From positions 5,055-69,054 of the forward strand of contig CAXGWX010000001.1 in NCBI GenBank assembly GCA_964013445.1: a DNA stretch of 64,000 nt, given 5' to 3'. Below, piece after piece: positions 18,692 to 41,230 of this stretch. The stretch's first letter is position 1. Every line of letters starts with the position of its first letter. The position numbers were made by a program, and so were the translations under genes. The notes below the pieces were generated by a model. It saw only the letters and a program-made list of their open reading frames with translations. It was not told the origin of the DNA and made no database searches. The DNA is from an uncultured Bdellovibrionales bacterium. GTDB lineage: Bacteria; Myxococcota; XYA12-FULL-58-9; JASMKV01.

Positions 18692-18709
18692 ACTCCTGAG
18701 CAAGTATTA

Positions 18710-19931: not shown

Positions 19932-20798
19932 TTACTCGGAGGCTATCCGGCAAAGATACTGCCCATAATCGGATTTTCCTAAAGACTCACCTAAAGCATT
20001 AAGGGCATCTCGATCGATAAAACCCATTCTATAGGCAACTTCTTCTATACAACCTATTCTTAAGCCTTGCCGCTGCTCTACGGTCGAAATGAAATTGGCA
20101 GCATCAATGAGGGTTTTAGGCTGCCCCGTATCCAGCCATGCTGTCCCTCGACCCATCACCTCAACACGCAACTCACCACGATCCAAATAGTGCTTATTAA
20201 TATCTGTGATTTCCAGTTCTCCACGAGGTGAAGGCTTGAGGCCTTCGGCCACTTTCACCACCTCATTATCGTAAAAATAGATTCCGGGAACCGCATAGTT
20301 TGAGCGAGGGTCGGCAGGCTTCTCTTCTAAGCCAACCGCCTTACCCGAGTCATCGAACTCAACAACACCGTAATCGCTTGGATTGCTCACATAGTAAGCG
20401 AAAATTGTTGCCCCAGACTTGAGCTGGCTGGACTCCTGTAACTGCCTGGCTAAACCTTGCCCGTAAAAGATATTATCGCCGAGGATAAGAGCAACTGAGT
20501 CATCACCTATAAACTCTTTGCCAATTGTAAAAGCTTGCGCCAAACCGTCTGGACTCGGTTGCACAGCATAAGAAAAATTGACTCCCAAGCTTTCCCCATC
20601 GCCTAAGAGATTTTGAAAGCCTGGCAAATCTCTGGGCGTAGAGATGACGAGAATATCCTTACACCCGGCCAGCATAATTGTAGAAAGCGGATAATAAATC
20701 ATTGGCTTGTCGTAAACAGGCATGAGCTGTTTAGAAACCGCCAGAGTTAAGGGGTAGAGCCTTGTCCCTGAACCGCCTGCTAAAATAATTGCTTTCAT
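19932..20798 (-). CDS. rfbA: Glucose-1-phosphate thymidylyltransferase RmlA
   Basis: [18 protein letters not shown] signature N-terminus. 288 aa. Confidence 0.85.
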
Positions 20799-20826
20799 AT
20801 AATCCTAAGGCTTGAAATTAATCTTC

Positions 20827-21813
20827 TTAAAGAAATCTTGCTATCGGTTTGTAGCTCTTACCAATTACTCTTGCAAGGTTCTGCCAAAAGATCCTTTGGA
20901 TTTCAAAGTAATTCGCCTGCCTTAAAGAGTGGGAGAATGCCCCAAAAAGACTCCTCTCACACCATCCCCATTTACCCCGCAAAACCAGATCTGTCTCCGC
21001 CAAGGTATCAGAACCCGTCTTTTCCAGGGAAAAACTCAATAAATAGTCGAGAAAACGATAACAACGCTGCATGCGCCAAAGCACATAGCGAACCGGTCCT
21101 AAATACTGTGTATCACAGAGGGTTTCATCAAGCACCCAGGCATAGGACCGCTTCATACGCAGAACGTCTTCTGACATATTTCTTCCTGTCCATCGATTAT
21201 GCACAACGATCTCATTTTGGCATTCTATCTGAAAGCCTCTGATGGCCAAACGCAGCCAAAAATCCCAATCTTCACACCCGTAAATAGAAAAAAGACTACT
21301 GCTCGATTCTTTAAATCCACCGACCTCATTCAGCACTTCGCGTTTTATCAATGCGGCATTAATCAGAATAAAATTTCGAACCAAGAGCGTTGAGAGCAAG
21401 GTCCCTTCAGGAAGCGGATACTCCACCTCAACCTCTTGATTATTCTTAAAATAGCGCCCCAGGCCATAAGTCGCTGCCACATTTTTGTTTCCCTGCATAA
21501 AAGAGACTTGGTTTTGCAACTTCTCCGGTAACAACTTGTCATCCGCATCAAGAAACTGAACCAAAGATCCAGTGGTTGCGCTTAGCCCTACATTGCGTGC
21601 TGCGGATAGGCCTAGCTGCTGCTGATTGACAAAAAATATTTGTGGAAAACGCTCAGAATAGGATTCTATAATTTCACCAGTTCGGTCGCTAGAACCATCA
21701 TTAACAATACAAAGTTCCCAATTTGAAAAAGTTTGCGCGAGGACAGAATCAATCGCCTCAGCAATCGTACTCTCTTCATTGTGGGCTGTTATAATAACCG
21801 AAACGTCAGGCAT
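20827..21813 (-). CDS. Glycosyltransferase family 2
   Basis: VSVIITAHNEE...DSVLAQT...IVNDGSSD...DADD GT-A motifs. Confidence 0.75.
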   Translation of the reverse strand: MPDVSVIITAHNEESTIAEAIDSVLAQTFSNWELCIVNDGSSDRTGEIIESYSERFPQIFFVNQQQLGLSAARNVGLSATTGSLVQFLDADDKLLPEKLQNQVSFMQGNKNVAATYGLGRYFKNNQEVEVEYPLPEGTLLSTLLVRNFILINAALIKREVLNEVGGFKESSSSLFSIYGCEDWDFWLRLAIRGFQIECQNEIVVHNRWTGRNMSEDVLRMKRSYAWVLDETLCDTQYLGPVRYVLWRMQRCYRFLDYLLSFSLEKTGSDTLAETDLVLRGKWGWCERSLFGAFSHSLRQANYFEIQRIFWQNLARVIGKSYKPIARFL

Positions 21814-21827
21814 AGCTATTGTGGAAT

Positions 21828-22607
21828 TCAGCTTGCTTGTTTTTTTTGCATGGAGACATGTTCTTTGTAGCGCTTAATCACTTCATCTGTCGGGCCATCC
21901 GCAACAATCTGCCCCTTATCCATAAAAATAACGCGTTCGCAGTATTCAGCAATCAACGGCAAACTATGTGAAACCATGATAACCGTAACCCCTTTGTCGA
22001 ATATTTCCTGCATCCGAACCTGGCACTTTAATTTAAATGATTCGTCACCGACAGCAAATATTTCATCCAAGAGAAGTATTTCAGGCTCTATATCCGCAGC
22101 AACAGAAAATCCTAGCCTGGTGCGCATTCCTGAAGAATAGTTTCTGATTGGAATATCAATATGCTCCTCAAGCTCAGCAAAATCCACAATTCGGTCAAAT
22201 CGCTCCTGCATATTTTGACGGGAAAGTCCCATGATTGCACCATTTAAGAAGATATTTTCACGGCCTGTTAACTCCGCATTAAAACCTGCGCCTAACTCGA
22301 TCAATGGGGTAACCATCCCGTGAACAGAAATGTTTCCTTCTCGGGCCGGAAGTACAGAGGCGATTGCTTTTAGCAGTGTGCTTTTTCCACAACCATTTGC
22401 GCCAATGAGGCCCAAATGCTCACCACGTCGAACATTTAAATCCAGGTTGCGTAAAGCCCAAAACTCTTTGAATTTAGAGCCTGAGAAAAGATTTACAACA
22501 AAATCCTTTAAAGTCACTGTCTTTTCACGATACTGGCGATAACAAATACCCAAATTACTTGCTTCTATAATATGCTCTTCGCCACTATGTTCATTCACTT
22601 TAAGCAT
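21828..22607 (-). CDS. ABC transporter ATP-binding protein for glycan export (Wzt/TagH/KpsT-like); no C-terminal carbohydrate-binding module
   Basis: Walker A GANGCGKSTLLK, LSGGM signature and Walker B LLLDE. Start taken at the ATG overlapping the wzm stop (ATGCTTAA junction). The listed ORF extends to 22628. Confidence 0.8.
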   Translation of the reverse strand: MLKVNEHSGEEHIIEASNLGICYRQYREKTVTLKDFVVNLFSGSKFKEFWALRNLDLNVRRGEHLGLIGANGCGKSTLLKAIASVLPAREGNISVHGMVTPLIELGAGFNAELTGRENIFLNGAIMGLSRQNMQERFDRIVDFAELEEHIDIPIRNYSSGMRTRLGFSVAADIEPEILLLDEIFAVGDESFKLKCQVRMQEIFDKGVTVIMVSHSLPLIAEYCERVIFMDKGQIVADGPTDEVIKRYKEHVSMQKKQAS

Positions 22608-23376
22608 AGAAAATAAAATTATCCTCATTCTTCACAAAGACAGCCGAGCCCAACACAAAAACTGCAACCGCCAAGCCAAAGCCTATAGTCCATGTACTCA
22701 GAGTTGATAATGTTCCGTAATATAAAAGATCACGGATAACCGTAACAGGATAATAAGCAGGATTAAATTTTAAAAGAAATGCCGCCTTTTCTCCAAAAAG
22801 GCTTACCGGATAAATAATTGGCGTCAAATAAAAAAGTGCTCTAAGCATTGTGGCCGTTAAATGTGTGAAGTCCCTAAAAAAGACATTTAATGTCGACATG
22901 AGCAACGCACTACCCACCGTAAAAAGATAGAGCATGGCAAAAGCCATCGGCAAAAGTATAATAGACGGCATGATGGGGTAGGAAGCGACAAGCGCAATCA
23001 ATATATAGGCTATTAATGAAAATACTAGATTAACAAAATTAGAAGTCACGATTGCTACAGGAAAAACGATTTTAGGAACATAGATTTTTTGAATTAAACT
23101 ATACTGTTTAACGATGCTGTTTTGCCCAGCATCAACAGACTGAGAAAAAAACATCCAAACAATAAGACCTGAGAGCAAAAAGAGGGCATAAAACTCCTCC
23201 TGAACGCGCGCAACACGTGAAAACACCCCCCATAACACCAACATCAGAAGAAGTGGATTAAGTAGAGTCCAAAAAAATCCAAGAAAACTACCTCGATAGC
23301 GAGTTTTCAGCGTTAAAAAAACCAAATGCGCCGTCAATTCCCGGTATCTATATAGCTCCTGCAGGGCCTTTAGCAT
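22600..23376 (-). CDS. ABC-2 type transporter permease (Wzm/TagG/KpsM-like)
   Basis: 258 aa with about 6 predicted TM helices. Directly upstream of, and overlapping, the ATPase gene. Confidence 0.7.
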   Translation of the reverse strand: MLKALQELYRYRELTAHLVFLTLKTRYRGSFLGFFWTLLNPLLLMLVLWGVFSRVARVQEEFYALFLLSGLIVWMFFSQSVDAGQNSIVKQYSLIQKIYVPKIVFPVAIVTSNFVNLVFSLIAYILIALVASYPIMPSIILLPMAFAMLYLFTVGSALLMSTLNVFFRDFTHLTATMLRALFYLTPIIYPVSLFGEKAAFLLKFNPAYYPVTVIRDLLYYGTLSTLSTWTIGFGLAVAVFVLGSAVFVKNEDNFIFYA

Positions 23377-23502
23377 AACATCCTATACTCTATGCTTTGT
23401 TGCGATAAGTAACTTTACATTAATCAATTTCAACCATAAAAGCCATTACGCAATACTTATAATAAGTGAGAAATACAAGCATTTAAGGAGATCCGGTTCA
23501 CA

Positions 23503-25695
23503 ATGCAGGCAAGATTCGGCAGCATCATAAGAACCAAGCTGAAGTGGCTCCTTCTGAAAGTTGCACAAAAAAGTGCTTTTCTGCGGCTGTACAGCGATAT
23601 CTTAAAAAATATACTGAGAAATTCAATACATTTTCCCAAAATCACTATCGTTGTTCCACTCTACAACGAAGAGCGGTTTGTTGCTGAGACCATTAAAAGT
23701 ATTCAAAACCAAAATTATAAGAATATTGAAGTTTTGGTTATCAATGATTGTTCTACAGATCAAAGTGTCAACGTTGCAAAGCAAGCATTTGCTAATGATT
23801 CCAGATTTCAGCTGATTAATCACGACACCAATCAAGGGCTTGCCGCTTCACGGAACACAGGCATTAAACATGCCACGGGCGAATATATTACCTTTCTTGA
23901 TTCAGACGACTGCCTTGTCCAGCATACATTGTGGCACAGGGTCCGCGCCATGCAGCGCAATCATTCTTCTGATATTGCAGGGAGTTATTGCATAACAACC
24001 ACCACAGCTGAAGATTTCAATTTTTCCCTGCTGAGCAAGCTCGCCTATAAGCGTCCCCCGCCAATGGCTGATATCGATTTTATGTCTTGCAAGGGAGAGT
24101 GCCCATTTAACGCCCACGCTCCTCTTCTGAAAACTGCTATCATACAGAAATTCAGTGGATTCAACGAAGAAATGCGGCACGGGTGCGAAGATTGGGAGTT
24201 CTGGCTACGTATCATGCGACACGGCTATCGTTTTATACCCAGCCACCATATAGGAGCCATATACAGACAGAAGAATTCGGGCATGATCCATACAATGGCT
24301 TCACAACATTACAAATATGCTCGCGACCTCATTGAATCAGCATATCAATCATTTCCCGAGCATCTCCACATTAAAGGCACGCCTTTCGTCTACAAAGAAC
24401 CACTTTCTTTCTATCAGGAAACACTGGTGAAGATGCGCAGAGCCACCCAATTTGCTGCCATTGGCTATATCGCAAATGGCAAAGAGGGATGTGCCGATAT
24501 CATTAAATCTATGCCCCCCTGCCCAAGGATATGGCTTCGTAAACATCTAAGCATTCCAGGTCTTGTGGAAGCGGGCATTCGTCGATACCTAAAACTGTCG
24601 CCCAAAGAATACCTCAAGGTTCGCAACAGTTATCTTGACCGACGCGATGAAATTACCCAGCTTATCTGGAGTCAGATACACCCCCAAACAGGAACACAGT
24701 CGACTCAGCATATAGACGTCCTATTTATTCCACACAATGCATATCACACCTATGAAATGTCGTTTTGTCTGCCCTATTTAAAAAAACAAGGGATTAGCTA
24801 TTTATTTATCAACGTTGATAAGGTTTATAAAAATGAAGGTGTCGAAAAGAAAGCTTTGGAGCTGGGCCTGCCCTATGCTGACTATTCTGAAAATATTTTA
24901 GACCGTTATTCCCCAAAAGCCATCTTTGTCATGAACGATTGGGGAGGAGTTGTTGCAGAGACAGTAAAACTAGCTAATGATACTGGTATTCATACTCTTG
25001 GTTTAGTCGAAGGAGTTCAGGACTATCTTGACACTCATGTAGAACATATTGGAGTTGGGCATAAAAGAAACCCCTACCAAACGGTGAAACATCCTTTGGT
25101 CGTAGGGGAGTATGATAAACAGTTTTTTCTTGCAAGCGACCCCATAGTGGTGGGTTCTCCTCGGATTGAAAATCTTTTAACAAAAGAATATTCTCCCCCA
25201 GAAAAACCTCTTGTTTGTATAAACAGTAATTTTACCTATGGCGTCTACACCAACATCCAAAAAGAGTGGATCGATGATGTCATTTCCGCATGCGATACAC
25301 TCGGCTTGCCATATGTCATATCTAAACACCCTGCAGATCGCATTGTGCTTGAACAATACAATGTCGCAGATAGACACCTTTATGAAATATTACATGAAAG
25401 TTCGGTTCTAATTAGTCGTTTCAGCGGGGCGATTTTAGAGTCAATGGCCATAGGCACACCTGTTATATATTATAACCCTCATGGCGAAAGGGTTGACTGC
25501 TTTCAAAATAGCCTAGACGCTTACCCCGTCGCTAAACATAGAAAACAGCTTATTGGGGCTCTAGAGGGCATCCTTTCTATGAACAATCGAGCAGCAAGAG
25601 ACGTAAAGAGTTTTTTTGATTTTCATGTCTATACCAATGAAAAGACTTGCGCTGGTGAACGCATCGGTCAGACAATTGCTAAAATTATATCATAA
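23503..25695 (+). CDS. Two-domain glycosyltransferase: N-terminal GT2 plus C-terminal GT-B-like (TagF/KpsC-like) domain
   Basis: AAGGAG RBS 10 nt upstream of the ATG. ITIVVPLYNEERFV...NDCSTD...LDSDD GT2 motifs in the first about 250 aa. A roughly 350-aa C-terminal domain with alternating beta/alpha character; that assignment is tentative. Confidence 0.6.
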   Translation: MQARFGSIIRTKLKWLLLKVAQKSAFLRLYSDILKNILRNSIHFPKITIVVPLYNEERFVAETIKSIQNQNYKNIEVLVINDCSTDQSVNVAKQAFANDSRFQLINHDTNQGLAASRNTGIKHATGEYITFLDSDDCLVQHTLWHRVRAMQRNHSSDIAGSYCITTTTAEDFNFSLLSKLAYKRPPPMADIDFMSCKGECPFNAHAPLLKTAIIQKFSGFNEEMRHGCEDWEFWLRIMRHGYRFIPSHHIGAIYRQKNSGMIHTMASQHYKYARDLIESAYQSFPEHLHIKGTPFVYKEPLSFYQETLVKMRRATQFAAIGYIANGKEGCADIIKSMPPCPRIWLRKHLSIPGLVEAGIRRYLKLSPKEYLKVRNSYLDRRDEITQLIWSQIHPQTGTQSTQHIDVLFIPHNAYHTYEMSFCLPYLKKQGISYLFINVDKVYKNEGVEKKALELGLPYADYSENILDRYSPKAIFVMNDWGGVVAETVKLANDTGIHTLGLVEGVQDYLDTHVEHIGVGHKRNPYQTVKHPLVVGEYDKQFFLASDPIVVGSPRIENLLTKEYSPPEKPLVCINSNFTYGVYTNIQKEWIDDVISACDTLGLPYVISKHPADRIVLEQYNVADRHLYEILHESSVLISRFSGAILESMAIGTPVIYYNPHGERVDCFQNSLDAYPVAKHRKQLIGALEGILSMNNRAARDVKSFFDFHVYTNEKTCAGERIGQTIAKIIS

Positions 25696-25882
25696 AGGCG
25701 TATTTGTAATACTTGCGTGACATACTTTTAATCTAGCCCCGTATTACTCCAACGCTTCTTACTCAATTGGTTGGAGCATGAGTAACAATGAATATAAAAC
25801 CTGCATCCACCACTCAAGAAAGCCAACAAGTCTAGCCCAAGTCTCTCGTCAACAGGATCGCACTCTTCTGAATGACTCCGGC

Positions 25883-28800
25883 TTAATTGAATATTCTCCT
25901 GATCTTCTTTATAACACCAGAATATCGGCTATTTGTGCCTTGGCCAGACTCCTCGAAAAATCTTTCACTCTTTGTGTTGAGATGCACACCCTTGCCCTCT
26001 AATGCTAGATTTTTAGCCTCAATAACACCATCTCGCCTGGAAATGGCTTCATTCTTCTCATTTATAACATCATCTCGCCTGGAAATGGCTTCATTCTTCT
26101 CATTTATAAGGGCTGTCTTTGCCCGCAAGGCTTCGTTCTTCTCATTTATAACACCATCTCGCCTGGAAATGGCTTCATTCTTCTCATTTATAAGGGCTGT
26201 CTTTGCCTGCAAGGCTTCGTTCTTAGCCTCAATAATCAAATCACGACGCTTCAAAGCACTGTTCTTTTCAAGGATAAGAAAGTTCTTTTCCGCCAATGCT
26301 TGATTTTTTTCAGCAATGGTCTGATCGCGCCTAAGTAATGCCATGCTTTTATCCTTCATCGATGCTGTATGCTTACCTTTATTAAGAAAAGACTGTTCCA
26401 GCTTAGATGAGCGTCCAAAAACACTATCTATTTGCATAATCAAATTTGAATATTTTGCCGCATCAAATTTTTCAATAAACTCCTCAACGACTCTTTCCAA
26501 CTGCCCCCCTAGCATATCCCTCCACTGGTTGATGTCGCATTGATAATATCTAGAAACCAACCATCGAGACATTTCTTCAATCTCTCGGGTAGTAATTGCA
26601 GATGTCAAATGCGGCCACATCTTATCTGCTATCTGTTGAGCCTCATCCTGCTTGCCCGCTAAAATATTCCACAAAACCCCTTGCCACAATCGCTTGTTCA
26701 TCCGGTATCTCATGTGTGCCGCACCAAACCCGTCTCGATACTCATCTAGGGCGTGCCCACTACAATCATCAACACTATAAACTTTATCTAAAACGAAATT
26801 AAGTTTGTTCAAGTGAGCATTATAGTCTGAGAACACTGTCCCCTCTGAGGTCTGTACATATTTAACCATCGCGTCAGGAACATTATTAAAAACAACCCCG
26901 CATCTCGCTAAACGCTGAAAAAAGTCCCAGTCTTCTCCATTAGCAATAGTGGGGTCAAATAATGCATATTTAGGAATAAATTCACTTTTCAAAAATAGTG
27001 CGTTGCAATGAAATGGGCACCCATCCATATTTAAGAATGTCGTTGTTTTACGATTTTTCGAAGTAATCCAGCTTAGATGATCCTTGTTTCCGTCGACAAT
27101 TTCGGTAGGACAATAAACCGCATCATGATCGAAATCGATAAGGTGCTGCATGCGTAAATGTATGGAACCATCACAAAACACATCATCCGCATCCAAAAAT
27201 CCTATATAATCACTCTCTGCCGCCAGCATTCCCGTATTTCTGGCATTTGATACCCCATTTTTGTCACTGTCTATTACCTTTATGCGCGAGTCATTCCCGG
27301 CTATATTATATAGTATTTCCCTGTTCTCCTCATTAGACCCATTATTAACAATAATAACATCCAGCCGTGGATAATTATCCTCAAAGACTGAATCTAATGC
27401 CTCCTGTATGGTGCTGCCTGCATTGCGGTAAGGTATAACTATCGAAATTGAAGGATAAAAATCGTTCTCATATTCTTCACCCAAATATGTATATCTTTTA
27501 CGCAGAGCCGGCAAATAAGACGGAGTCAACACATCAAACTTCTTACCGCGACTTTCCGCAAGTGTAATCCATTTATCTAAGACATCTCGGTGAGTAGTAT
27601 TGTACTCATTAAAATCAATATCAAAAAAGCTTGGATGAGCCGTTTTTATGTTGGCCATTTTAGAAGTAATTTGAGTCTTTTTATTATGCTTCCAATAATA
27701 ATCGTCTTCCTTCAATTTACGTCCGTCGCACCCAAGAATATGAATATGATTCGAAAATGTTGCGGCCAAAGGAATCATCATATTTGTTAGAATGTTTCCT
27801 GTCGTTTCGATATAAAACTGGTGGTTTAGGTTCAAATTGGTCCCTTTACCGCTTTCCAATGGTACACCAACACACCGCTCTTTTAACTCAGGAAAATAAT
27901 GAGTGAACAGCCTGTAGTAATTAAATGGAATCATAATCGGGAGGTCATATTTACCAACAACATCTAACAGTTTTTCCCTGTACTCTTTAGCGTATAAGTT
28001 ACACCCAAAATGGAAAATAGGATCGCCAAAGACCAACATCTCAGGGTTAACATATTTAACCAATTCATCATCAAAAATTACACTGTTACAAATAATTCTT
28101 AGACCATCATCGAAGTTGTAATTCGGGTATTTATCAATGGATGGCCCCGTCGCGAACAGATAGGATTTTTCCTTCTTACCTAGGCGATGTGCCAATTCCA
28201 TTAACCGAGCTTTGCACTCTTCAACATCGGCTTCCTTTTCGGGATAGTTATCAGGGTGCAACCCTGCCTTGATGTAAAAGGAACCTTCATAGCGCTCATT
28301 AATATTGTCAACTCGCCACCTCTGCTTCGCGCCAACTTCTTTCTCGAAAGCCTGTTTCCATATGGAGCTGGGATGCGTTGTTAAATCCCAATGCATTACG
28401 AGATCTGCCGAACGAAAAACCTTTACGGGAGCATTGGTATCGCTCGCATTAAGAACATGAATCTTGTCACGAATTTCTTCATAAACTCCAAGAATTGAAG
28501 GGTCCAGATAATCAGGAACCTCAAATTCAAAGCCTGAAAGGTCCAAGTTTTCGTCACAAAAGAAATAAATCTCTCTAAAATCAATAACACTTAAATACCA
28601 GCACGCTCTAGCAATATGGTCATTCAAATCGTCCAGAGTTGAGAAAAACGGGTAATAAAAGACAATGGGTTCAATAAACTCTTCGTGCCGAACAACATTG
28701 CTCTCTGTCAAATTCTTTATCTTTCGTTCGCGATTCTCTATCATGATATGCTGTTTATTTATGATTCGTTGTTGCGATGTAAAAATCTCTGATGCCAGTT

Positions 28801-29497
28801 GAAATTGTTCAGCTAAATCGGAAGATTTTAAGGCAATCAAATTTCCCCAGCCGTTATTGTCACCTAAATCACATGGGTATTTTGTTAGTGACCTCCATGT
28901 ATGTTGCATTCCATATTCGACAATAGGATACCACTCAGACACAAAAACCGTATAACCTTGTTCAATAAGATAATTAGCGATATCTCTAAACCTATAGCCC
29001 AACGGTATCGTTTTACGGTTTTCAAACTCACAAATAATATATTCTGGCTGTATTTGAGACCAATCATTCGATTTCAATACAAAATAGTCGAAACCTTCTG
29101 TATCAATTTTTAAAAAATCTATTTGATCGATATTTTTCTCATTACAAAAATCATCTAACCTAATCGTCTCAACGTTAAAATGTGATCGATGACTCGTATG
29201 AAATGAACTGAGCCCGCTGATACCGGAGCTAACATCGCTCTGATAAAACGGCAATACATCGCCCGTCTGTTCCCCTATAGCGCGTGTGTCAACATCAACA
29301 TTTACAAATTTTTCGATTGATTGTAAAAGTCTCTCACGATTTTTTGGATCAGGTTCAAGAGCAAATATTTTCCATCCATCTTCCGCAAAACGTTTCAGTG
29401 AACCCCCATAATGCGCACCAACATCAATCATGGTACGGAGTCCCGTATTGGCACCATTACTCTTTATGAATTGATAAATGAGTTCTACTTCGTTCAT
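25883..29497 (-). CDS. Multidomain glycan-assembly protein: N-terminal FkbM-family methyltransferase, central domains, GT2 glycosyltransferase, C-terminal coiled coil of 14-aa repeats and a basic amphipathic tail
   Basis: FkbM motif MIDVGAHYGGSLKRFAEDGWKIFALEPDPKNRE near the N-terminus. Start chosen at the ATG (complement of 29495-29497) preceded by an AGGTG RBS; the listed ORF extends to 29575. GT2 motif ISIVIPYRNAG...IVNNGSNEEN...LDADD at about residue 700. C-terminal repeats (KNEAISRRDGVINE / KNEALRAKTALINE) followed by GVIKKIRRIFN. Confidence 0.7.
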   Translation of the reverse strand: MNEVELIYQFIKSNGANTGLRTMIDVGAHYGGSLKRFAEDGWKIFALEPDPKNRERLLQSIEKFVNVDVDTRAIGEQTGDVLPFYQSDVSSGISGLSSFHTSHRSHFNVETIRLDDFCNEKNIDQIDFLKIDTEGFDYFVLKSNDWSQIQPEYIICEFENRKTIPLGYRFRDIANYLIEQGYTVFVSEWYPIVEYGMQHTWRSLTKYPCDLGDNNGWGNLIALKSSDLAEQFQLASEIFTSQQRIINKQHIMIENRERKIKNLTESNVVRHEEFIEPIVFYYPFFSTLDDLNDHIARACWYLSVIDFREIYFFCDENLDLSGFEFEVPDYLDPSILGVYEEIRDKIHVLNASDTNAPVKVFRSADLVMHWDLTTHPSSIWKQAFEKEVGAKQRWRVDNINERYEGSFYIKAGLHPDNYPEKEADVEECKARLMELAHRLGKKEKSYLFATGPSIDKYPNYNFDDGLRIICNSVIFDDELVKYVNPEMLVFGDPIFHFGCNLYAKEYREKLLDVVGKYDLPIMIPFNYYRLFTHYFPELKERCVGVPLESGKGTNLNLNHQFYIETTGNILTNMMIPLAATFSNHIHILGCDGRKLKEDDYYWKHNKKTQITSKMANIKTAHPSFFDIDFNEYNTTHRDVLDKWITLAESRGKKFDVLTPSYLPALRKRYTYLGEEYENDFYPSISIVIPYRNAGSTIQEALDSVFEDNYPRLDVIIVNNGSNEENREILYNIAGNDSRIKVIDSDKNGVSNARNTGMLAAESDYIGFLDADDVFCDGSIHLRMQHLIDFDHDAVYCPTEIVDGNKDHLSWITSKNRKTTTFLNMDGCPFHCNALFLKSEFIPKYALFDPTIANGEDWDFFQRLARCGVVFNNVPDAMVKYVQTSEGTVFSDYNAHLNKLNFVLDKVYSVDDCSGHALDEYRDGFGAAHMRYRMNKRLWQGVLWNILAGKQDEAQQIADKMWPHLTSAITTREIEEMSRWLVSRYYQCDINQWRDMLGGQLERVVEEFIEKFDAAKYSNLIMQIDSVFGRSSKLEQSFLNKGKHTASMKDKSMALLRRDQTIAEKNQALAEKNFLILEKNSALKRRDLIIEAKNEALQAKTALINEKNEAISRRDGVINEKNEALRAKTALINEKNEAISRRDDVINEKNEAISRRDGVIEAKNLALEGKGVHLNTKSERFFEESGQGTNSRYSGVIKKIRRIFN
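25990..26330 (-). repeat. In-frame 42-bp tandem repeats (about 7-8 copies, the central ones near-identical) encoding the coiled-coil region of the 25883..29497 protein
   Basis: Near-perfect copies of ttctcatttataacaccatctcgcctggaaatggcttcattc and a sister unit alternate between about 26020 and 26220. More diverged copies lie on both sides. Confidence 0.85.
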
Positions 29498-30031
29498 GCC
29501 TAAACACCTATAAAATGAGGAATTACCTCGAATAATAAAAATCGCTATATAGTTAGTATTGCCCAGATATGTCAATCAACCCATTAGTGAATTAACACCG
29601 CAAAGGGGTAAAAATTAGGCGCATAAGCCATATCAGTTCGCATTAATCACTCACTTGCGTCATCACATATTGCTGTCTTTCTGCAAACATTTGCTGCAAG
29701 CACTACGGCGCTCTGCTTAACCAAAAACAAATCGCATCCATGTCCATAAATCTTCAAGTATCTTCACAAGTTAAGATTAAGACGACAAACAATGTTAATC
29801 TAATTTACCTGCACTTGAGTGAAGGAAACTCCCTAGCATATCATAGAAGCTTAAAAATTTATAAAGTATAGAAAGTTTTCCGTAAGTAAGGTATCGTTTC
29901 GCCTGAATTACAAAAACATCCTCTGGAATTCATCGATGAATTTGCAAAACAGCTTGCACCGTTTCAGATTGATGCCATATGCACAAAACGCCCAGATTTA
30001 TGGAATAAAAGTTTTTCTAAGCAATAGCTGC

Positions 30032-30697
30032 TCAACTTATACCGTAGCTTTTTCTAATCTCTTCAAAATTAGTGTACCAGGTCATTTCTGGGTAAGTCTT
30101 AACCAAAATGCTTGCTTCATCTTCAGCCAAAGCAACAAAAGGCACCTGGTGTTCGGCCGCAGCGTTATAATCACTTAAGGCATCGCCAAAAAAGAAACAT
30201 TTGGTTGTATTATAACCATAATCATCAACCAGACGGGCGACATGCTCCCCTTTTGAGGTCGGCGCACCCAAAACTTCTTTAAAATACTTACTCCAACCAC
30301 GTCTCGCGACAATAAGCTCTATCTCTTCTTGAGGCGTTGCGGAAATCACAAATGCTGGAACACTGGCCTTTTGGGTATATTCTTTTAAAAAGTTTTCTGC
30401 ACCTGGAATCTCATCTGCTGCAATAACTTTCTCAACAACCAATTGCGCAAACCCTTCGCAAAGCTCTTCCATTTTTTCTGCCGATAACGGTTCTTTTAAA
30501 AACTCCTGATAATAGACCTTAAATTTATCTCGTCTTGTCATGCCACCATTAGCCAGATGGTGCTCAACAACTTTTTGCTCAACGTCTGAACCATGGTGCG
30601 CAAAAAGCGCGGCAAATGCTTCGGTCTTCACGTTAACCGAATCCGCCAAGACGCCATCGAAATCAAAAAATAATGCATCAATATCTTCTGGGTTCAT
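30032..30697 (-). CDS. HAD-superfamily hydrolase (phosphatase, subfamily IA-like)
   Basis: DxDG motif I (FFDFDGVLADS) right after the proposed start. The start ATG overlaps the stop of the upstream cyclase gene (ATGA junction). The listed ORF extends to 30721. Confidence 0.7.
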   Translation of the reverse strand: MNPEDIDALFFDFDGVLADSVNVKTEAFAALFAHHGSDVEQKVVEHHLANGGMTRRDKFKVYYQEFLKEPLSAEKMEELCEGFAQLVVEKVIAADEIPGAENFLKEYTQKASVPAFVISATPQEEIELIVARRGWSKYFKEVLGAPTSKGEHVARLVDDYGYNTTKCFFFGDALSDYNAAAEHQVPFVALAEDEASILVKTYPEMTWYTNFEEIRKSYGIS

Positions 30698-31350
30698 GCT
30701 GTCCATCCGATCATTGTACAAGGAGCGCCATCACCCTTATGTATGCGCAAGGGTAGAGCAATAACCTTTGTAAGTGGTTTATCTAGATTTTCCAAAGAGA
30801 GGTCTTCGTAGATGAGAATATCTCGACCCAAGTATTCCTTATGCGCTGTTCTGCCTATTTCCCTGTGTTGGTAACTGGATAAAGAAATAAAATCGAAGCC
30901 AATGGCGCGTAACCCTGGAAATCTGGATTTCAAATCCTGAGCTGAATCCGGGTGCATGCCTGGATTTGACTGCCAATATGTATCTTCACCGCGTTTCGCT
31001 TCAAATCCGGTTCGAATAAGAATAAAATCAACTTCCTGCGGAGCGTCAACAAGAACCTGAGAAAGCTTTTCAAATTCAATCAGCTCACCTTCTTCTGCCT
31101 CATAATCGATATAAAGCGGTGATTCATATATCCACTCAGTAGGAGCATAATCGGTTATCGTCTTACCATCGGCCAAAAAGTGATATGGCGCATCAACATG
31201 ACTGCCGCTATGGTTGGGGAAATCAAGATGGGTATTGTTACTCGTGTCCCCCCGAGCAATGGAGCGAACATCCTTGAGTTCAATATTCTTTGCACCGCCA
31301 TAAAGGGGTGTTGTTTTACCAATCGGATGGGATAACCAAAAACAATCCAT
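30694..31350 (-). CDS. Cyclase-family protein (kynurenine formamidase-like metal-dependent hydrolase fold)
   Basis: HxGxHxDxPxH motif (HSGSHVDAPYHF). 218 aa. Confidence 0.7.
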   Translation of the reverse strand: MDCFWLSHPIGKTTPLYGGAKNIELKDVRSIARGDTSNNTHLDFPNHSGSHVDAPYHFLADGKTITDYAPTEWIYESPLYIDYEAEEGELIEFEKLSQVLVDAPQEVDFILIRTGFEAKRGEDTYWQSNPGMHPDSAQDLKSRFPGLRAIGFDFISLSSYQHREIGRTAHKEYLGRDILIYEDLSLENLDKPLTKVIALPLRIHKGDGAPCTMIGWTA

Positions 31351-31353
31351 TGC

Positions 31354-32253
31354 TTATAAGGCTCTCTTTGCCGTCGACTCAGAATCAACAGCAATTTCTT
31401 CAACAACATCAAGAACTCCCTGCCCAATATCAACAAAGGTTCGAGGTTCAATTTTTACCGCTTGTCTGGGTGTATAGCGATAGGGGGTCAAGAGATAATG
31501 GTCACTTTCTCCGCCTGGTTCTTCGAATTCAAATTCAATATCTTTACCAACAATTTCCTTGATGAAAGCAAAAAGCTCTTTGACCTTTAAAACTTGAGCT
31601 CCTGTTAATGTAAGACATTTATTCTCAAAATCCTTCTGAAGAGCCTCTACACTTAATCGAGAAGCATCCTTAACGTGAATATACTCCCGGCGCTCTTCAC
31701 CTGTCCCATTGCAAACTATTCTATTATTCCTCACCGCTTGCAGTATGTAATTCTTGAAACCATTCCAGTCCTGTGCTCGAGGTCCATAAAGAGAACCGTA
31801 ACGCAGTATCGTATAATTCAAACCATACTTTTCATGATACGCTTCAATGAGTGTCTCAACCGATTGCTTACTCGCTCGGTAAAATGAACCTCTTTGGCTA
31901 TATACATAGACTGTCGAGGCAAAAACAAATCGCTCAACGCCCTGCTCAACACAAGCGGACAATACGATTGAGCTTCCCATAACGTTACTCTCAATAGTCA
32001 GCAGCGGATTATTAGATGCCTCCCCAATATCCGCAACACCGGCCATGTGATACACATAGTCTATCCCTTTGCATGCTGAGAGAATGGCACTTTTGTCGAG
32101 TAAATTGCCTTGAATAAATTTTTGATTGGAGCTTATCCATTTAGATTCCACATGGTCAAAAATAGTAACGTCCATGCCTGCGGCACTTAATGCATCAGCA
32201 ACATGACTTCCTAAAAAGCCTGAACCACCAATAACAAGAGCTTTCTTTTGCAT
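31354..32253 (-). CDS. NAD-dependent epimerase/dehydratase (SDR family)
   Basis: KKALVIGGSGFLGSHVADAL Rossmann motif and YRASK catalytic YxxxK. Confidence 0.75.
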   Translation of the reverse strand: MQKKALVIGGSGFLGSHVADALSAAGMDVTIFDHVESKWISSNQKFIQGNLLDKSAILSACKGIDYVYHMAGVADIGEASNNPLLTIESNVMGSSIVLSACVEQGVERFVFASTVYVYSQRGSFYRASKQSVETLIEAYHEKYGLNYTILRYGSLYGPRAQDWNGFKNYILQAVRNNRIVCNGTGEERREYIHVKDASRLSVEALQKDFENKCLTLTGAQVLKVKELFAFIKEIVGKDIEFEFEEPGGESDHYLLTPYRYTPRQAVKIEPRTFVDIGQGVLDVVEEIAVDSESTAKRAL

Positions 32254-32262
32254 ATAAATCCC

Positions 32263-33198
32263 CTATGACAATGCTGAGAGCAGATTCTCTACCGCTTCTC
32301 GCTCCATTTGAATGCGTGCTTCTCGCGCATAGGAGCCAATATGGGGAGTAAGAATAACATTATCAAAATCTCTTAATGGCCCCTCATAAGGTTCTTGCTC
32401 AAAAACATCCAGAGCAGCGCCTGCAATTTCGTTGTTAGCTAATACATCAGAAAGGTCAGCTTCATTAATAACGTCCCCCCGGGCAACATTGATAATTAGG
32501 GCGCTTGGTTTCATGAGTGCGAGCAGGTTCTTACTCACAAGGTGTCGCGTGTCTTTACCCGACGCAAGATGTAAGCTCACGATATCAGAATCTCTAAACA
32601 GTTCCTCAATCGTATCTGTTTTTCTAATGTTCAAAGCAGTCATCTCGTCCCTATCAACATAGGGATCAAATGCGCAAACCTCTGTTCCAAAACACTGCAT
32701 TTTTTCAGCGAGTTTTCGACCAATTCGTCCACAACCAACCACACCTAAAGTCTTACCCTCAACCAGACCTCCAAGATGTTTCTTCCAGCTTCCGGTTCGT
32801 GTCTGTCGATCGTGCAAGGCTATTTGCCGGGCTAAAGAAAAAATAAGTGCTATAGAAAGCTCAACGACTGCCGGTGCCACTGCATCAGGTGTTCGAAAAA
32901 CCTCCATGCCGTATTCCTTCACCGCATCATGATCAACATTATCCCAACCAACCCCGACACGAGAGATAACACGCAGGTGCTCCTGAGCCTTTTCCAATAC
33001 TCGACGAGTTATAGGCTCAACACCTGCAATCAATCCGCATGGCTGGTATTCCGTAAGAAGGGAATCCAATTCCTCTTCCGAAAGACGTCTCGAAAAAGGA
33101 TTGGTAATGACTGTATACCCTTTGGATTCAAGCTCGCTCAGCGGGCCTCTATCTGCTGTGCCAAAGGATGATGTCGTCGTTAGTATTTTATTATCCAT
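32263..33198 (-). CDS. D-isomer-specific 2-hydroxyacid dehydrogenase (PGDH-like)
   Basis: NAD-binding GVVGCGRIGRKLAEK. Catalytic R/E/H pattern (VARG...E...HIGS). Start placed at MDNKIL, which overlaps the HpcH stop. The listed ORF extends to 33228. Confidence 0.7.
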   Translation of the reverse strand: MDNKILTTTSSFGTADRGPLSELESKGYTVITNPFSRRLSEEELDSLLTEYQPCGLIAGVEPITRRVLEKAQEHLRVISRVGVGWDNVDHDAVKEYGMEVFRTPDAVAPAVVELSIALIFSLARQIALHDRQTRTGSWKKHLGGLVEGKTLGVVGCGRIGRKLAEKMQCFGTEVCAFDPYVDRDEMTALNIRKTDTIEELFRDSDIVSLHLASGKDTRHLVSKNLLALMKPSALIINVARGDVINEADLSDVLANNEIAGAALDVFEQEPYEGPLRDFDNVILTPHIGSYAREARIQMEREAVENLLSALS

Positions 33199-33199
33199 T

Positions 33200-33979
33200 T
33201 TAATGGCCTTTCTTGGCGATAGTGACACCCTCTCGGCAGATTGAGTCTAATATTCTTATATCAAGACTGTAGGCAAGAAACTTATAGCCTTCTTCCTGAC
33301 AGCGAACGATTTCTTTAGGATCTGGCTCGATAATATGAATTCCCCCTGGCTTTGGACAATTAGCGACCGCACTATTAATTTTCTCCATGGCCTCAAGCAT
33401 TTTAGGGTTATTAAAGCCTCCTGGAGCCCCTAAAGAGCCAGATAAGTCATAGGGTCCAACAATAAATCCGTCTACCCCGTCATGGTCGAGAATTGAATCT
33501 ATATTATTGACCGCATCAATATGCTCAATTTGTGGAATAAGAATACTCTCATTTTGAAGCCGCTCTTTGTAGCCTTCAAAGTCAGCGCCATAAGCCTGAG
33601 CACGTGCAAGCCCCACTCCCCTCATCCCCATTGTAGGATAATGCATCGCTCGATAGGCACGCTCTACATCCTCAACTGAATTCACCATAGGAACAATAAT
33701 TCCCTTAGCACCCGCATCCATAACCCGCTTAATCTGCACTGCATCGTTTGAAGAAAGACGTACTAGCGGCGTAACACCACTCAGATCAATAATGCGAATG
33801 AGCTCCTCAGCTTCACGTATTGTGATAACACTATGTTCCAGATCAACACATAGCCAATCAAAACCAGATTTAGCCATAATTTCTGCTATTGCTGGGTGCC
33901 CCAAGGTTATCCATGACCCCAAGGTGGCTTCTCCAGCCTTTAGCTTTTCTTTTAAACCCATTTCGATTCTGCCCTTCAT
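33200..33979 (-). CDS. HpcH/HpaI-family class II (pyruvate) aldolase
   Basis: 259 aa with the family-typical GSWITLGHPAIAEIMA N-terminus and VRLSSNDAVQIKRVMDAGAKGIIVPMV core. Confidence 0.75.
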   Translation of the reverse strand: MKGRIEMGLKEKLKAGEATLGSWITLGHPAIAEIMAKSGFDWLCVDLEHSVITIREAEELIRIIDLSGVTPLVRLSSNDAVQIKRVMDAGAKGIIVPMVNSVEDVERAYRAMHYPTMGMRGVGLARAQAYGADFEGYKERLQNESILIPQIEHIDAVNNIDSILDHDGVDGFIVGPYDLSGSLGAPGGFNNPKMLEAMEKINSAVANCPKPGGIHIIEPDPKEIVRCQEEGYKFLAYSLDIRILDSICREGVTIAKKGH

Positions 33980-34089
33980 AAACTGGGAAATAGTTCAAAT
34001 CGGAACCTAGGACTACATTGATTCAGCATAAGAATCAACAACAAGGGCTGCTTATTCCTGCTCAATAAACCAGTTTAAGAGCTTGTTAT

Positions 34090-34773
34090 TTATGCGTTAT
34101 TTTCAGCGATGGTTTGTGCTAAATCCCAATCATCTGGACCATCTATATCCAAGGATTCCAGTGTATTCATCACATAGAGATATGGTCTTTTACCAATCCG
34201 AGCATTTGTTTGTAGAAAACTATCCTTAGAAAATAAATAAAGATTGGAGTTTTCCTCGTACCACGGTTCTAAATCCTGAGTGCGTAATAGATTTTCAGGA
34301 TCGTGATTAACTGGGCTTCCATCTTTACGGTAAAAACGAGTTTGAACTTTATTTACAGTAAAGAGTGAATCCGATTCTTCATTGGCCATTTTTGCGATGA
34401 ATATTTCTATACATTCTTCAATTGTCCCAATTTCAATAAAAGGGTTGGTTGTGTGGGTCATAAGATAGGTTTTTGAATTTATGTTATTAACATCATTTTC
34501 AAGTACCGCATTCATACTCACCATATCCCCACAAATGGACTCTGGACGGTCTCTCAAAATTACCTTTGAATTATGAATTTCTTCGAACTCTTCAAGTATT
34601 CCTCTCGCATCCGTGTTAATGACAACCTTATCAATACTGTCAACATGGAGTAACTTCTCCAATACCCAAAGAAAAAGAGGTTTACCGGCAAGCTCGCGAA
34701 AATTCTTATTGGGTACACGTTCACTATTTGCCTTCATTGGTAAAAGCGCTACGACGTTATACTCTTCACTCAT
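34090..34773 (-). CDS. Acylneuraminate/ulosonic-acid cytidylyltransferase family (CMP-sugar-acid synthetase)
   Basis: VVALLPMKANSERVPNKNFRELAGKPL N-terminal CTP-binding pattern of the CMP-NeuAc/CMP-Kdo synthetase family. 227 aa. Confidence 0.75.
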   Translation of the reverse strand: MSEEYNVVALLPMKANSERVPNKNFRELAGKPLFLWVLEKLLHVDSIDKVVINTDARGILEEFEEIHNSKVILRDRPESICGDMVSMNAVLENDVNNINSKTYLMTHTTNPFIEIGTIEECIEIFIAKMANEESDSLFTVNKVQTRFYRKDGSPVNHDPENLLRTQDLEPWYEENSNLYLFSKDSFLQTNARIGKRPYLYVMNTLESLDIDGPDDWDLAQTIAENNA

Positions 34774-35763: not shown

Positions 35764-35769
35764 GTCGTT

Positions 35770-37691: not shown

Positions 37692-37723
37692 GATACAATT
37701 ATTCTATCTCAAAAATATAAATA

Positions 37724-38830: not shown

Positions 38831-38898
38831 CCTCTTCTCCCTAAATGGTATTCAATCAAAGGTCTACTTTATGGGTATTGTCTATAAATCTCAAGAGA

Positions 38899-40005: not shown

Positions 40006-40022
40006 AAGGCTTAAAAAGCCAA

Positions 40023-41135: not shown

Positions 41136-41230
41136 TGCGTATCCTTAGCTAATGAAAAAGTAGCTAGGGGTTTGCGCTGCTTTTGTCAACCCTTAGATAA
41201 GCCGGTTGAAATTGGCTCAAGGCTCTCTAT

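What the first reader, a model, noticed from the sequence alone, without database searches (positions are those of the whole stretch)
23503..25695. 730-aa two-domain glycosyltransferase divergent from wzm-wzt: GT2 plus a possible KpsC/TagF-like GT-B domain
The N-terminal 250 aa are a clear GT2. The C-terminal roughly 400 aa have alternating beta/alpha character and a conserved H-x-x-x-H segment (FIPHNAYHTYEM) but no motif I can name with confidence. In ABC-dependent capsule systems, KpsC/KpsS-type retaining beta-Kdo transferases (GT99/GT107) build the lipid-linked primer. In wall teichoic acid systems, TagF-like domains polymerise polyol phosphates. If this C-terminal domain belongs to either group, it would connect to the adjacent CMP-sugar-acid cassette.
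Basis: inference. Interest (0 to 1): 0.5.

Follow-up and report, generated by a model that had tools for sequence, protein, structure and literature searches.

The report
Two-module glycosyltransferase with unnamed GT-B domain
This gene encodes a two-part sugar-polymer-building enzyme whose second part belongs to an unnamed enzyme family that, across many bacterial phyla, usually sits next to genes making an unidentified cytidine-activated acid, so it probably adds that acid, or acts right next to it, in a cell-surface polysaccharide.

Summary
The ORF (23503-25695, +, 730 aa) is real and is annotated only as "hypothetical protein" (MBJ79714.1, marine Myxococcales MAG). A confident model (pLDDT 91.7) shows N-terminal helices, a GT2/GT-A domain (res ~45-290), a four-helix linker (301-392) and a compact GT-B domain (406-729).

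In loci with full flanks, 34 of 43 relatives lie within 10 kb of one tight orthologous PseF/KdsB-like cytidylyltransferase plus a D-2-hydroxyacid dehydrogenase. These are the same genes found 4.3-9 kb downstream in the window.

The link is asymmetric. Only ~7% of cassette loci carry this GT-B, and most have a different, soluble GT2-like partner that the window lacks.

Best reading (confidence ~0.45): a bifunctional GT2 + cytidine-nucleotide-dependent GT-B that installs the cassette's acid. The donor's identity and the rival candidate transferase in the neighbouring 1230-aa protein remain unresolved.

The parts
23503..25695 (+). 730-aa ORF: two-module glycosyltransferase (GT2, helical linker, GT-B). 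It is identical to GenBank MBJ79714.1, 'hypothetical protein', from a Myxococcales MAG.
23506..23616 (+). Two N-terminal helices (res 2-38), basic and amphipathic-looking. No hydrophobic TM-like segment was found. A role in membrane or partner association is inference only.
23635..24372 (+). GT2 (GT-A fold) catalytic module, res ~45-290, with DSDD at 133-136 and CEDWEFW at 228-234. Closest structures are GalT1/CgT, SpsA, a PglI-like GT and the K4 chondroitin polymerase.
24403..24678 (+). Helical linker (res 301-392; helices 301-335, 342-348, 351-363, 367-392). It belongs with the GT2 module: stand-alone homologues of 375-395 aa cover GT2 plus linker. No Pfam match.
24718..25689 (+). GT-B domain of an unnamed family (res 406-729). 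Motifs: PHNAYH 410-415, NDWG 478-481, VEGVQD 502-507, NSNFTYG 574-580, KHPAD 608-612, SRFSG 638-642, NPHGE 658-662.
34090..34773 (-). CTP_transf_3 cytidylyltransferase, PseF/KdsB-like but below all equivalog cut-offs. It belongs to one tight orthologous family that co-occurs with the GT-B family.
33200..33979 (-). HpcH/HpaI-type class II aldolase. It is specific to cassette 'variant B' (window, L005, L058, L071, L073, L101, L109, L143, L145, L159).
32263..33228 (-). D-2-hydroxyacid dehydrogenase (phosphoglycerate-dehydrogenase-like). It is the second universal cassette gene.
30032..32253 (-). The rest of the variant-B cassette: extended SDR/epimerase (31354-32253), cyclase-family hydrolase (30694-31350) and HAD phosphatase-like protein (30032-30721).
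25883..29575 (-). Convergent 1230-aa neighbour: FkbM methyltransferase, an un-annotated middle domain, GT2 and a coiled-coil tail. The middle domain (res ~450-700) is a rival candidate transferase for the cassette product.
21828..23376 (-). wzt (21828-22628) and wzm (22600-23376): the ABC-transporter export pair, divergent from the target gene.

Best explanation
The gene encodes a cytoplasmic, probably membrane-peripheral, bifunctional glycosyltransferase of a Wzm/Wzt (ABC-transporter-dependent) polysaccharide pathway. The N-terminal GT2 module (DSDD, metal-dependent, inverting) would add an ordinary NDP-sugar. The C-terminal GT-B module belongs to an unnamed branch of the TagB/TagF-like group of cytidine-nucleotide-using GT-B enzymes. 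It would take the acid that the nearby cassette makes and activates (PseF/KdsB-like cytidylyltransferase, 2-hydroxyacid dehydrogenase, HpcH aldolase, SDR, cyclase-type hydrolase, HAD) and transfer it to the growing glycan. The two modules together would build an alternating or branched sugar/acid unit.

Shown: the domain architecture and folds; the remote homology; the genetic coupling of the GT-B family to one orthologous cytidylyltransferase + dehydrogenase pair; and the modular, mostly fused nature of the family.

Inferred: that the cassette product is a CMP-linked 2-keto (ulosonic-type) acid; that the GT-B uses it as donor; and that the invariant H609 / S641 / E662 in the C-terminal sub-domain bind the nucleotide phosphate and ribose, while D479 / E503 / D507 (and H415) in the N-terminal sub-domain act on the acceptor.
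For: (1) Fold and homology. The GT-B model has pLDDT 91.6. The family profile's only significant PDB sequence hit is the CDP-ribitol enzyme TarL, aligning family SRFS...E...NPHGE with TarL SDYSS...E. PF04464 matches 25/52 members. NF046086, the T. forsythia Pse/Leg transferase family, matches 24/52 with best E 3e-11, and TIGR04396 matches 31/52. Knock-out of the T. forsythia enzymes removes the terminal CMP-derived nonulosonic acid (PMC5420450).

(2) Coupling. Cytidylyltransferase orthologues occur in 52/80 GT-B-selected genome loci, and in 34/43 with at least 8 kb on both sides. The median distance is 3.1 kb and 43/52 are on the same strand. The 2-Hacid_dh is in 49/80. Profile scores are bimodal, 236-365 bits or nothing, which indicates one orthologous enzyme. 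The same module surrounds divergent stand-alone homologues in Vibrio fluvialis, Mucilaginibacter rubeus and a metagenomic contig whose loci have Wzx/Wzy-, Wza- or flippase-type genes.

(3) The window's cassette variant (with HpcH aldolase) never carries the soluble GT2-like protein 'U' that accompanies the commoner variant. Four variant-B loci have the GT-B as the recognisable partner.

(4) The family is a glycan-assembly module. 93/127 further representatives are longer than 450 aa, many are fused to GT2, and three have two matched stretches.

(5) The same GT2+linker module is elsewhere fused to, or adjacent to, MptE/Maf-like domains (PF01973), a family I know as candidate nonulosonic-acid transferases. 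This suggests equivalent partner roles.

(6) PF02348-type cytidylyltransferases are known, to my knowledge, only to make CMP-ulosonic acids. A 2-hydroxyacid dehydrogenase can create the 2-keto acid function (established family knowledge plus inference).
Against: The reciprocal test is weak. Of 80 metagenome loci chosen by the cytidylyltransferase, only 3 have this GT-B (3 of the 43 that are at least 8 kb long), while the 2-Hacid_dh (20/20) and an SDR (17/20) are constant. In the common cassette variant a different protein, the soluble GT2-like 'U', sits a median 7.5 bp upstream of the cytidylyltransferase, is sometimes fused to it, and could be the true acid transferase.

The window itself holds a second candidate. 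Homologues of the middle domain of the 1230-aa neighbour follow the cassette directly in three loci without the GT-B.

Nine of 43 full-flank GT-B loci have no cytidylyltransferase within 10 kb, including the Phycisphaerae GT2-GT-B fusions that are among the window's closest relatives.

Confidence: 0.45

Rival explanations
1. The GT-B module uses an ordinary NDP-sugar, and its tie to the cassette is through the acceptor. It would add the next sugar onto, or beside, the acid residue. The acid itself would be installed by another enzyme: the soluble GT2-like 'U' in most loci, and in this window the middle domain of the 1230-aa neighbour.
For: The association is asymmetric: GT-B to cassette 79%, cassette to GT-B ~7%. 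U is always adjacent to, or fused with, the cytidylyltransferase in variant A and co-occurs with the GT-B there (39/52). Homologues of the neighbour's middle domain directly follow the cassette in L135, L154 and L124 and occur in variant-B locus L145. That domain has a weak MptE/Maf-like signal (2/7 members, E 1.3e-3). The structural neighbours are dominated by UDP/TDP-dependent GT-B enzymes.
Against: Variant-B loci L005, L058, L071 and L073 have neither U nor the middle domain but do have the GT-B. Sequence-level relatives are cytidine-nucleotide enzymes: TarL, PF04464 and the T. forsythia NulO transferases. U is a PF00535-type GT-A, and to my knowledge no member of that family is known to use CMP donors.
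Confidence: 0.25
2. The GT-B module is a TagF-like phosphotransferase. The cytidylyltransferase makes a CDP-linked polyol- or acid-phosphate, and the two modules polymerise a teichoic-acid-like poly(glycosyl-X-phosphate), as TagF-like capsule polymerases do.
For: TarL is the best PDB sequence hit of the profile and PF04464 the most frequent Pfam match. The GT-plus-TagF-like fusion architecture matches the capsule polymerases described in PMC5974469 and PMC8262930 (abstracts seen). The cytidylyltransferase has weak similarity to IspD/TarI-type enzymes (E 2.5e-7 and 2.4e-5).
Against: The cytidylyltransferase is PF02348 (E 7.5e-23), with a full-length match to PseF (E 1.1e-22) and far weaker IspD/TarI matches. 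No TagD/TarI/TarJ-type genes were seen in the locus. The window domain is below the PF04464 cut-off and only the C-terminal sub-domain aligns. Family members match the NulO-transferase model NF046086 (24/52) and TIGR04396 (31/52) far more often than the NCBIfam TarL model (2/52).
Confidence: 0.15
3. The GT-B domain is not a transferase. It would be an NDP-sugar hydrolase or 2-epimerase-like enzyme (NeuC/PseG-like) that supplies the free sugar from which the cassette makes the acid.
Against: Sequence similarity to Epimerase_2 is marginal (8/52 members, best E 5.8e-4, C-terminal part only), and no epimerase is found by the profile in the PDB. The domain is usually fused to GT modules, sometimes apparently in two copies. 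The cassette nearly always occurs without it, which does not fit an essential pathway enzyme.
Confidence: 0.07

Closest known systems
Tannerella forsythia nonulosonic-acid transferases Tanf_01245 / TFUB4_00887 / BFO_1060 (NCBIfam NF046086)
   Same: Both are GT-B enzymes with a TagB-like signature, encoded next to the genes that make a CMP-activated acid. Family members of the target match this model (24/52, best E 3e-11). Genetic evidence supports transfer of a CMP-derived ulosonic acid (PMC5420450).
   Different: All matches are far below the model's cut-off: the window domain scores 13.5 bits against 200. Those enzymes are ~445-aa single proteins that add a terminal residue to a protein O-glycan. 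The partner pathway here has no NeuB/PseI-type synthase, and the acid is unidentified.
TagF / TarL / TagB teichoic-acid CDP-polyol phosphotransferases (Pfam PF04464, GT-B)
   Different: The window domain is below the Pfam gathering score (12.6-14.5 vs 22.1 bits). The N-terminal sub-domain does not align. The associated cytidylyltransferase is of the CMP-ulosonate type, not TagD/TarI. The fold is more compact and closer to epimerases and GT1/GT28 enzymes.
KpsC/KpsS (GT107) and WbbB N-terminal domain (GT99), retaining beta-Kdo transferases
   Same: They have a comparable biological niche: ABC-transporter-dependent glycans, CMP-activated acid donors and multi-module proteins. WbbB sits in a coiled-coil terminator (PMC11231755; PMC9587256 abstract).
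   Different: No detectable sequence, profile or top-ranking structural similarity. The target has a classical compact GT-B, not the modified architecture described for WbbB.
UDP-GlcNAc 2-epimerases / NeuC (Pfam Epimerase_2)
   Different: Identity is 10-14%. Sequence matches are only marginal and C-terminal. The fusion to GT modules and the locus context argue for a transferase.
Bifunctional two-module polymerases of ABC-transporter-dependent pathways (K4 chondroitin polymerase, heparosan synthase, TagF-like capsule polymerases, Bcs3)
   Different: The combination of a GT2, a helical linker and this particular GT-B family has not been described in the literature I could search.

Membership tests
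GT2 (Pfam PF00535) - N-terminal module | Significant match to the GT2 profile above the gathering score | tested here: met
   PF00535 121.6 bits vs cut-off 23.3, E 4.3e-35, res 48-162; PF10111 and PF13641 also above cut-off
GT2 (Pfam PF00535) - N-terminal module | GT-A fold with a DxD motif | tested here: met
GT-B fold superfamily - C-terminal module | Two Rossmann-like beta/alpha/beta sub-domains | tested here: met
TagF-like / Glyphos_transf (PF04464) | Profile match at or above the Pfam gathering score (22.1 bits) | tested here: not met
   12.6-14.5 bits, E 0.017-0.067, covering only profile positions 258-366 of 367. 25/52 relatives match at E<=0.1, best 1.3e-8. This is a remote relative, not a member by threshold.
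TagF-like / Glyphos_transf (PF04464) | Locus supplies a CDP-glycerol or CDP-ribitol donor (TagD, TarI/TarJ) | tested here: not met
   No such genes among the neighbours scanned between 9.3 and 48.4 kb. The only cytidylyltransferase is PF02348, PseF/KdsB-like.
TagF-like / Glyphos_transf (PF04464) | Catalytic histidines of TagF (H444, H584) / TarL (H300) at equivalent positions | not tested
   No residue-level structural alignment was available. The family has an invariant H609 and a mostly conserved H415, but equivalence was not established.
KpsC/KpsS, GT107 (Pfam Capsule_synth PF05159) | Sequence or profile similarity to the family | tested here: not met
   No PF05159 hit at E<=1 or in 52 relatives at E<=0.1. 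The family profile finds no KpsC chain in the PDB at E<=10.
KpsC/KpsS, GT107 (Pfam Capsule_synth PF05159) | Structural similarity ranking with the family | tested here: not met
WbbB-type beta-Kdo transferase, GT99 | Sequence, profile or structural similarity to the WbbB N-terminal domain | tested here: not met
BFO_1060-family nonulosonic-acid transferases (NF046086) | Match at or above the curated cut-off (200 bits) | tested here: not met
   13.5 bits, E 0.029 for the window domain. 24/52 relatives match, best E 3e-11, all below cut-off.
BFO_1060-family nonulosonic-acid transferases (NF046086) | Encoded beside the biosynthesis genes of a CMP-activated acid | tested here: met
   A cytidylyltransferase orthologue lies within 10 kb in 34/43 full-flank loci. 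In the window it is 8.4 kb away in the same locus.
BFO_1060-family nonulosonic-acid transferases (NF046086) | Transfers a CMP-activated ulosonic acid | not testable with these tools
   Needs enzymology or genetics
UDP-GlcNAc 2-epimerase (Pfam Epimerase_2 PF02350) | Profile match above the gathering score (30.6 bits) | tested here: not met
   11.3-12.8 bits, C-terminal part only; 8/52 relatives, best E 5.8e-4
GT137 (K. pneumoniae O4 ORF7, alpha-Kdo terminator) | [quoted passage not shown] | tested here: not met

The most novel reading that the evidence does not exclude
[quoted passage not shown] It would transfer a previously undescribed CMP-activated 2-keto sugar acid made without a NeuB/KdsA-type synthase. 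Two routes seem possible: aldose oxidation (SDR, then a lactonase-type hydrolase, then 2-hydroxyacid dehydrogenase), or, in this window, an HpcH-aldolase route. The 730-aa protein would then be a co-polymerase building an alternating sugar/acid polysaccharide exported by Wzm/Wzt. Members lacking the cassette (e.g. the Phycisphaerae fusions next to heptosyltransferase genes) would use housekeeping CMP-Kdo.
Probability: 0.25. Interest if true: 0.75.

Novelty: new variant of a known kind. Interest (0 to 1): 0.55.

Why it matters
Enzymes that add CMP-activated acids (sialic, pseudaminic and legionaminic acids, Kdo) to bacterial surfaces are few, belong to many unrelated families, and are sought after for glycoengineering and as antivirulence targets.

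This work delineates an un-annotated GT-B family of ~660-850 clusters at 50% identity. It is found in Myxococcota, Planctomycetota, Alpha- and Gammaproteobacteria, Bacteroidota, Actinomycetota, Marinimicrobia and others.

The family is genetically tied to a conserved, uncharacterised cytidylyltransferase / 2-hydroxyacid-dehydrogenase cassette, which had more than 571 hits in metagenome contigs. If that cassette makes a new activated acid, then the sugar, its pathway and its transferases are all open.

Culturable carriers make the question directly testable: Vibrio fluvialis, Mucilaginibacter rubeus, Psychrobacter pygoscelis and Roseibium aggregatum IAM 12614.

Tried and rejected

2. GT137: rejected after reading its description, which is of a non-GT-B, methyltransferase-like topology.

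3. Direct sequence search of the C-terminal domain against the PDB: no hit at E<=10.

4. Literature searches for the gene combination (TagF-like + cytidylyltransferase + 2-hydroxyacid dehydrogenase; ulosonic acid + HpcH; hexulosonic/heptulosaric acids; acylneuraminate cytidylyltransferase + dehydrogenases): no paper describes this module. [quoted passage not shown]

5. The hypothesis that the GT-B is the cassette's obligatory partner: rejected by the reciprocal scan (3/80 loci).

6. The hypothesis that the GT2 abutting the cytidylyltransferase in the window (34774-35763) is the conserved partner 'U': rejected. It gives no BLAST match to U, it has C-terminal hydrophobic segments, and it is ArnC/PgfS/DPM-like.

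7. My recollection that the neighbour's middle domain resembles GT42/Maf sialyltransferases: only weakly supported (PF01973 in 2/7 members at E 1.3e-3, no PDB match). It is left open.

8. The ~480-aa un-annotated gene between the SDR and the GT-B in L083/L085: a polytopic membrane protein, probably a flippase, not a pathway enzyme.

9. Promoter and terminator scans around the gene: counts equal the shuffle expectation, so they are uninformative.

10. Rfam scan of the window: no hits.

Full report
**Observation.** The ORF at 23503-25695 (+) is real: 730 aa with an ATG start. It lies divergent from wzm (22600-23376) and wzt (21828-22628) and convergent with a 1230-aa ORF (25883-29575). The exact protein is in GenBank as MBJ79714.1, 'hypothetical protein' of a marine Myxococcales MAG. 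The N-terminal GT2 is unambiguous: PF00535 at E 4.3e-35 and DSDD at residues 133-136. The C-terminal ~430 aa reach no curated threshold. There are only sub-threshold matches to the C-terminal halves of GT-B families: Glycos_transf_1, PF04464, Epimerase_2, TIGR04396 and NF046086.

**Anatomy.** An alignment of 52 stand-alone and fused homologues (A1) places the conserved core at residue ~406-730. AlphaFold models of the C-terminal 360 aa (pLDDT 91.6, pTM 0.86) and of the whole protein (pLDDT 91.7, pTM 0.82) show four parts:
- two N-terminal helices (2-38);
- a GT-A domain (47-280);
- a four-helix linker (301-392);
- a compact two-Rossmann GT-B domain (406-729).

The invariant residues are D479, W480 (NDWG), E503, D507 (VEGVQD), N576, F577, Y579 (NSNFTYG), H609, R639, F640, S641 (SRFS), Y656 and E662 (NPHGE).

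**What it is not.** KpsC/KpsS (GT107) and WbbB (GT99) are excluded as families. There is no Pfam hit in the protein or in 52 relatives. The profile finds no PDB sequence hit at E<=10, although I know both to have solved structures. Neither is among the top structural matches. GT137 has a different, non-GT-B topology.

**What it is related to.** The family profile's one significant PDB sequence hit is the CDP-ribitol polymerase TarL (E 5e-5). Only the nucleotide-binding sub-domain aligns, with family SRFS...E...NPHGE opposite TarL SDYSS...E. Across the 52 members, the match counts are:
- PF04464: 25 members, best E 1.3e-8;
- TIGR04396: 31 members, best E 3.8e-11;
- NF046086: 24 members, best E 3e-11.

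NF046086 is built on the Tannerella forsythia transferases of pseudaminic/legionaminic acid derivatives. These are TagB-like GT-B enzymes whose deletion removes the terminal CMP-derived acid (PMC5420450). All these matches are below the curated cut-offs. The domain therefore belongs to an unnamed branch of the TagB/TagF-like, cytidine-nucleotide-using GT-B group.

An exhaustive profile search finds 662 clusters (50% identity) at E<=1e-30 and 855 at E<=1e-10 among 1.84 billion representatives. Most are multi-domain proteins, and three have two matched stretches.

**Genomic coupling.** I fetched 80 genome loci encoding relatives, from many phyla. Orthologues of the window's CTP_transf_3 cytidylyltransferase (34090-34773) occur in 52 of them, and orthologues of its 2-hydroxyacid dehydrogenase (32263-33228) in 49. 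Among the 43 loci with at least 8 kb on both sides, the counts are 34 and 33. The median distance is 3.1 kb and 43 of 52 are on the same strand. Profile scores for the cytidylyltransferase are bimodal, 236-365 bits or nothing, which indicates one orthologous enzyme. It is more conserved than the GT-B itself: median 43% identity to the window against 32%.

De novo clustering shows a recurrent operon: GT2-like, cytidylyltransferase, 2-Hacid_dh, short-chain dehydrogenase, optionally an SMP-30/gluconolactonase-like or cyclase-family gene, then the GT-B. Annotated contexts of three divergent stand-alone homologues show the same module inside loci with Wzx/Wzy-, Wza- or flippase-type genes (Vibrio fluvialis, Mucilaginibacter rubeus and a metagenomic contig). 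So the module is independent of the export route.

The window's cassette is a rarer 'variant B', which adds an HpcH aldolase, an HAD and an extended SDR. It is shared with L005, L058, L071 and L073 and with five metagenome loci. The cytidylyltransferase is PseF/KdsB-like but far below every equivalog cut-off (PseF 80.8 vs 205.7 bits). No NeuB/KdsA-type synthase was seen in the locus. The activated product is therefore unknown.

**The counter-test.** I then started from the cytidylyltransferase. More than 571 relatives were found in metagenome contigs, and the best 80 were fetched. The 2-Hacid_dh (20/20) and the SDR (17/20) are constant where flanks allow. The GT-B family is present in only 3 loci, even at E<=10.

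The cassette's constant companion is a soluble ~310-aa GT2-like protein, which I call 'U'. It lies a median 7.5 bp upstream of the cytidylyltransferase and is sometimes fused to it. U occurs in 39/52 cytidylyltransferase-positive genome loci and in 0/28 negative ones. It is absent from the window and from every variant-B locus.

The window's GT2 at 34774-35763, which abuts the cytidylyltransferase gene, is not U. It is an ArnC/PgfS/DPM-like enzyme with C-terminal hydrophobic segments.

A further candidate partner is the un-annotated middle domain of the 1230-aa neighbour. Its homologues directly follow the cassette in L135, L154 and L124, none of which has the GT-B, and one occurs in variant-B locus L145. 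It has no PDB sequence match and only a weak MptE/Maf-like signal.

**The GT2 half.** Residues 1-412 (GT2 plus linker) form a module of their own. It occurs as stand-alone 375-395-aa proteins in Wzm/Wzt loci and as fusions to PF01973 (MptE/Maf-like) instead of the GT-B. So the same GT2 module pairs alternately with the GT-B or with a Maf-like domain. This fits the idea that the two partner domains play equivalent roles.

**Interpretation.** The best-supported reading is a bifunctional enzyme of an ABC-transporter-dependent polysaccharide pathway. The GT2 module adds an NDP-sugar, and the GT-B module transfers the cassette's cytidine-activated acid. I put this at about 0.45, because of the asymmetry of the association, the presence of U elsewhere, and the second candidate in the window.

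The main rival (0.25) is that the GT-B uses an ordinary NDP-sugar and depends on the acid only as part of its acceptor. A TagF-like phosphotransferase making a teichoic-acid-like polymer (0.15) and an epimerase/hydrolase-like precursor enzyme (0.07) are less likely, for the reasons given under each.

The chemical proposal is inference only and is not needed for the main conclusion. It is a 2-keto acid formed either by SDR, lactonase-type hydrolase and 2-Hacid_dh, or by the HpcH aldolase.

Members without a nearby cassette might use housekeeping CMP-Kdo. These include the Phycisphaerae fusions next to heptosyltransferase/GmhB-like genes, and P0008, which lies next to a BIG-like FkbM protein and 8 kb from a kdsB-like gene beside lpxK. 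This is speculation.

**Verdict.** It is worth experimental follow-up, and the donor is still unproven.

Noticed in passing
window 25883-29575 (-): A 1230-aa protein with an FkbM methyltransferase (res 51-209), an un-annotated ~400-aa middle part, a GT2 (711-850) and a C-terminal repetitive coiled-coil encoded by a 42/84-bp tandem repeat (26022-26245). The architecture resembles the 'terminator with molecular ruler' proteins of ABC-dependent O-antigens, yet Wzt here (266 aa) has no carbohydrate-binding module. Homologues of the middle domain follow the cytidylyltransferase cassette in other loci, with a weak MptE/Maf-like signal.
   Followed up: partly
L089-L168 and L001-L080; e.g. L083 5226-6146, L085 5136-6098: There is a widespread conserved cassette: a soluble GT2-like protein 'U' (~310 aa, apparently lacking a DxD at the usual place in the one representative I read), a PseF/KdsB-like cytidylyltransferase, a D-2-hydroxyacid dehydrogenase and a short-chain dehydrogenase, with or without an SMP-30/gluconolactonase-like gene. 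It had more than 571 hits in metagenome contigs. The literature searched has no description of it. It probably makes an unknown activated acid.
   Followed up: partly
window 38899-46953: recF (38899-40026), dnaN (40023-41135) and dnaA (41538-42941) lie on the minus strand; yidC (44193-45929) and an R3H/jag-like gene (45946-46953) on the plus strand. The cumulative GC skew has its minimum near 40 kb. The replication origin is therefore probably in the 1.25-kb gap 42942-44192.
   Followed up: partly
window ~20000-40000: The polysaccharide locus has a lower G+C (0.40-0.42) than the flanks (0.47-0.51). It lies between mnmE/mnmG (9338-12546) and recF-dnaN-dnaA, which fits a horizontally acquired island next to the origin.
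   Followed up: no
window 34774-35763 (-): This GT2 has three C-terminal hydrophobic segments and its best matches are ArnC, PgfS and dolichyl-phosphate hexose transferase. It may make a polyprenyl-phosphate-sugar donor for modification of the polymer on the outer face of the membrane.
   Followed up: partly
P0125, P0128, P0131, P0147; L087 9120-11125; L088 8669-11131: The target's GT2+linker module is elsewhere fused to, or directly preceded by, an MptE/Maf-like (PF01973) domain. In one Wzm/Wzt locus it is preceded by a DUF4915 protein. This suggests interchangeable second modules.
   Followed up: partly
P0240, P0241, P0242 (from the exhaustive search): Proteins of 1167-1608 aa with two matched stretches of the GT-B profile, possibly two copies of the domain, reminiscent of the dual-module organisation of KpsC.
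   Followed up: no
window 13614-15077 (+) and 12693-13592 (+): A 487-aa ORF with no Pfam match sits between a eukaryotic-type carbonic anhydrase gene and the first UDP-glucose/GDP-mannose dehydrogenase-family gene at the edge of the locus.
   Followed up: no
window 15146-19909 (+): Two tandem UDP-glucose/GDP-mannose dehydrogenase-family genes, an epimerase/dehydratase and a DegT-type aminotransferase point to an amino-uronic-acid sugar in the same polysaccharide.
   Followed up: no
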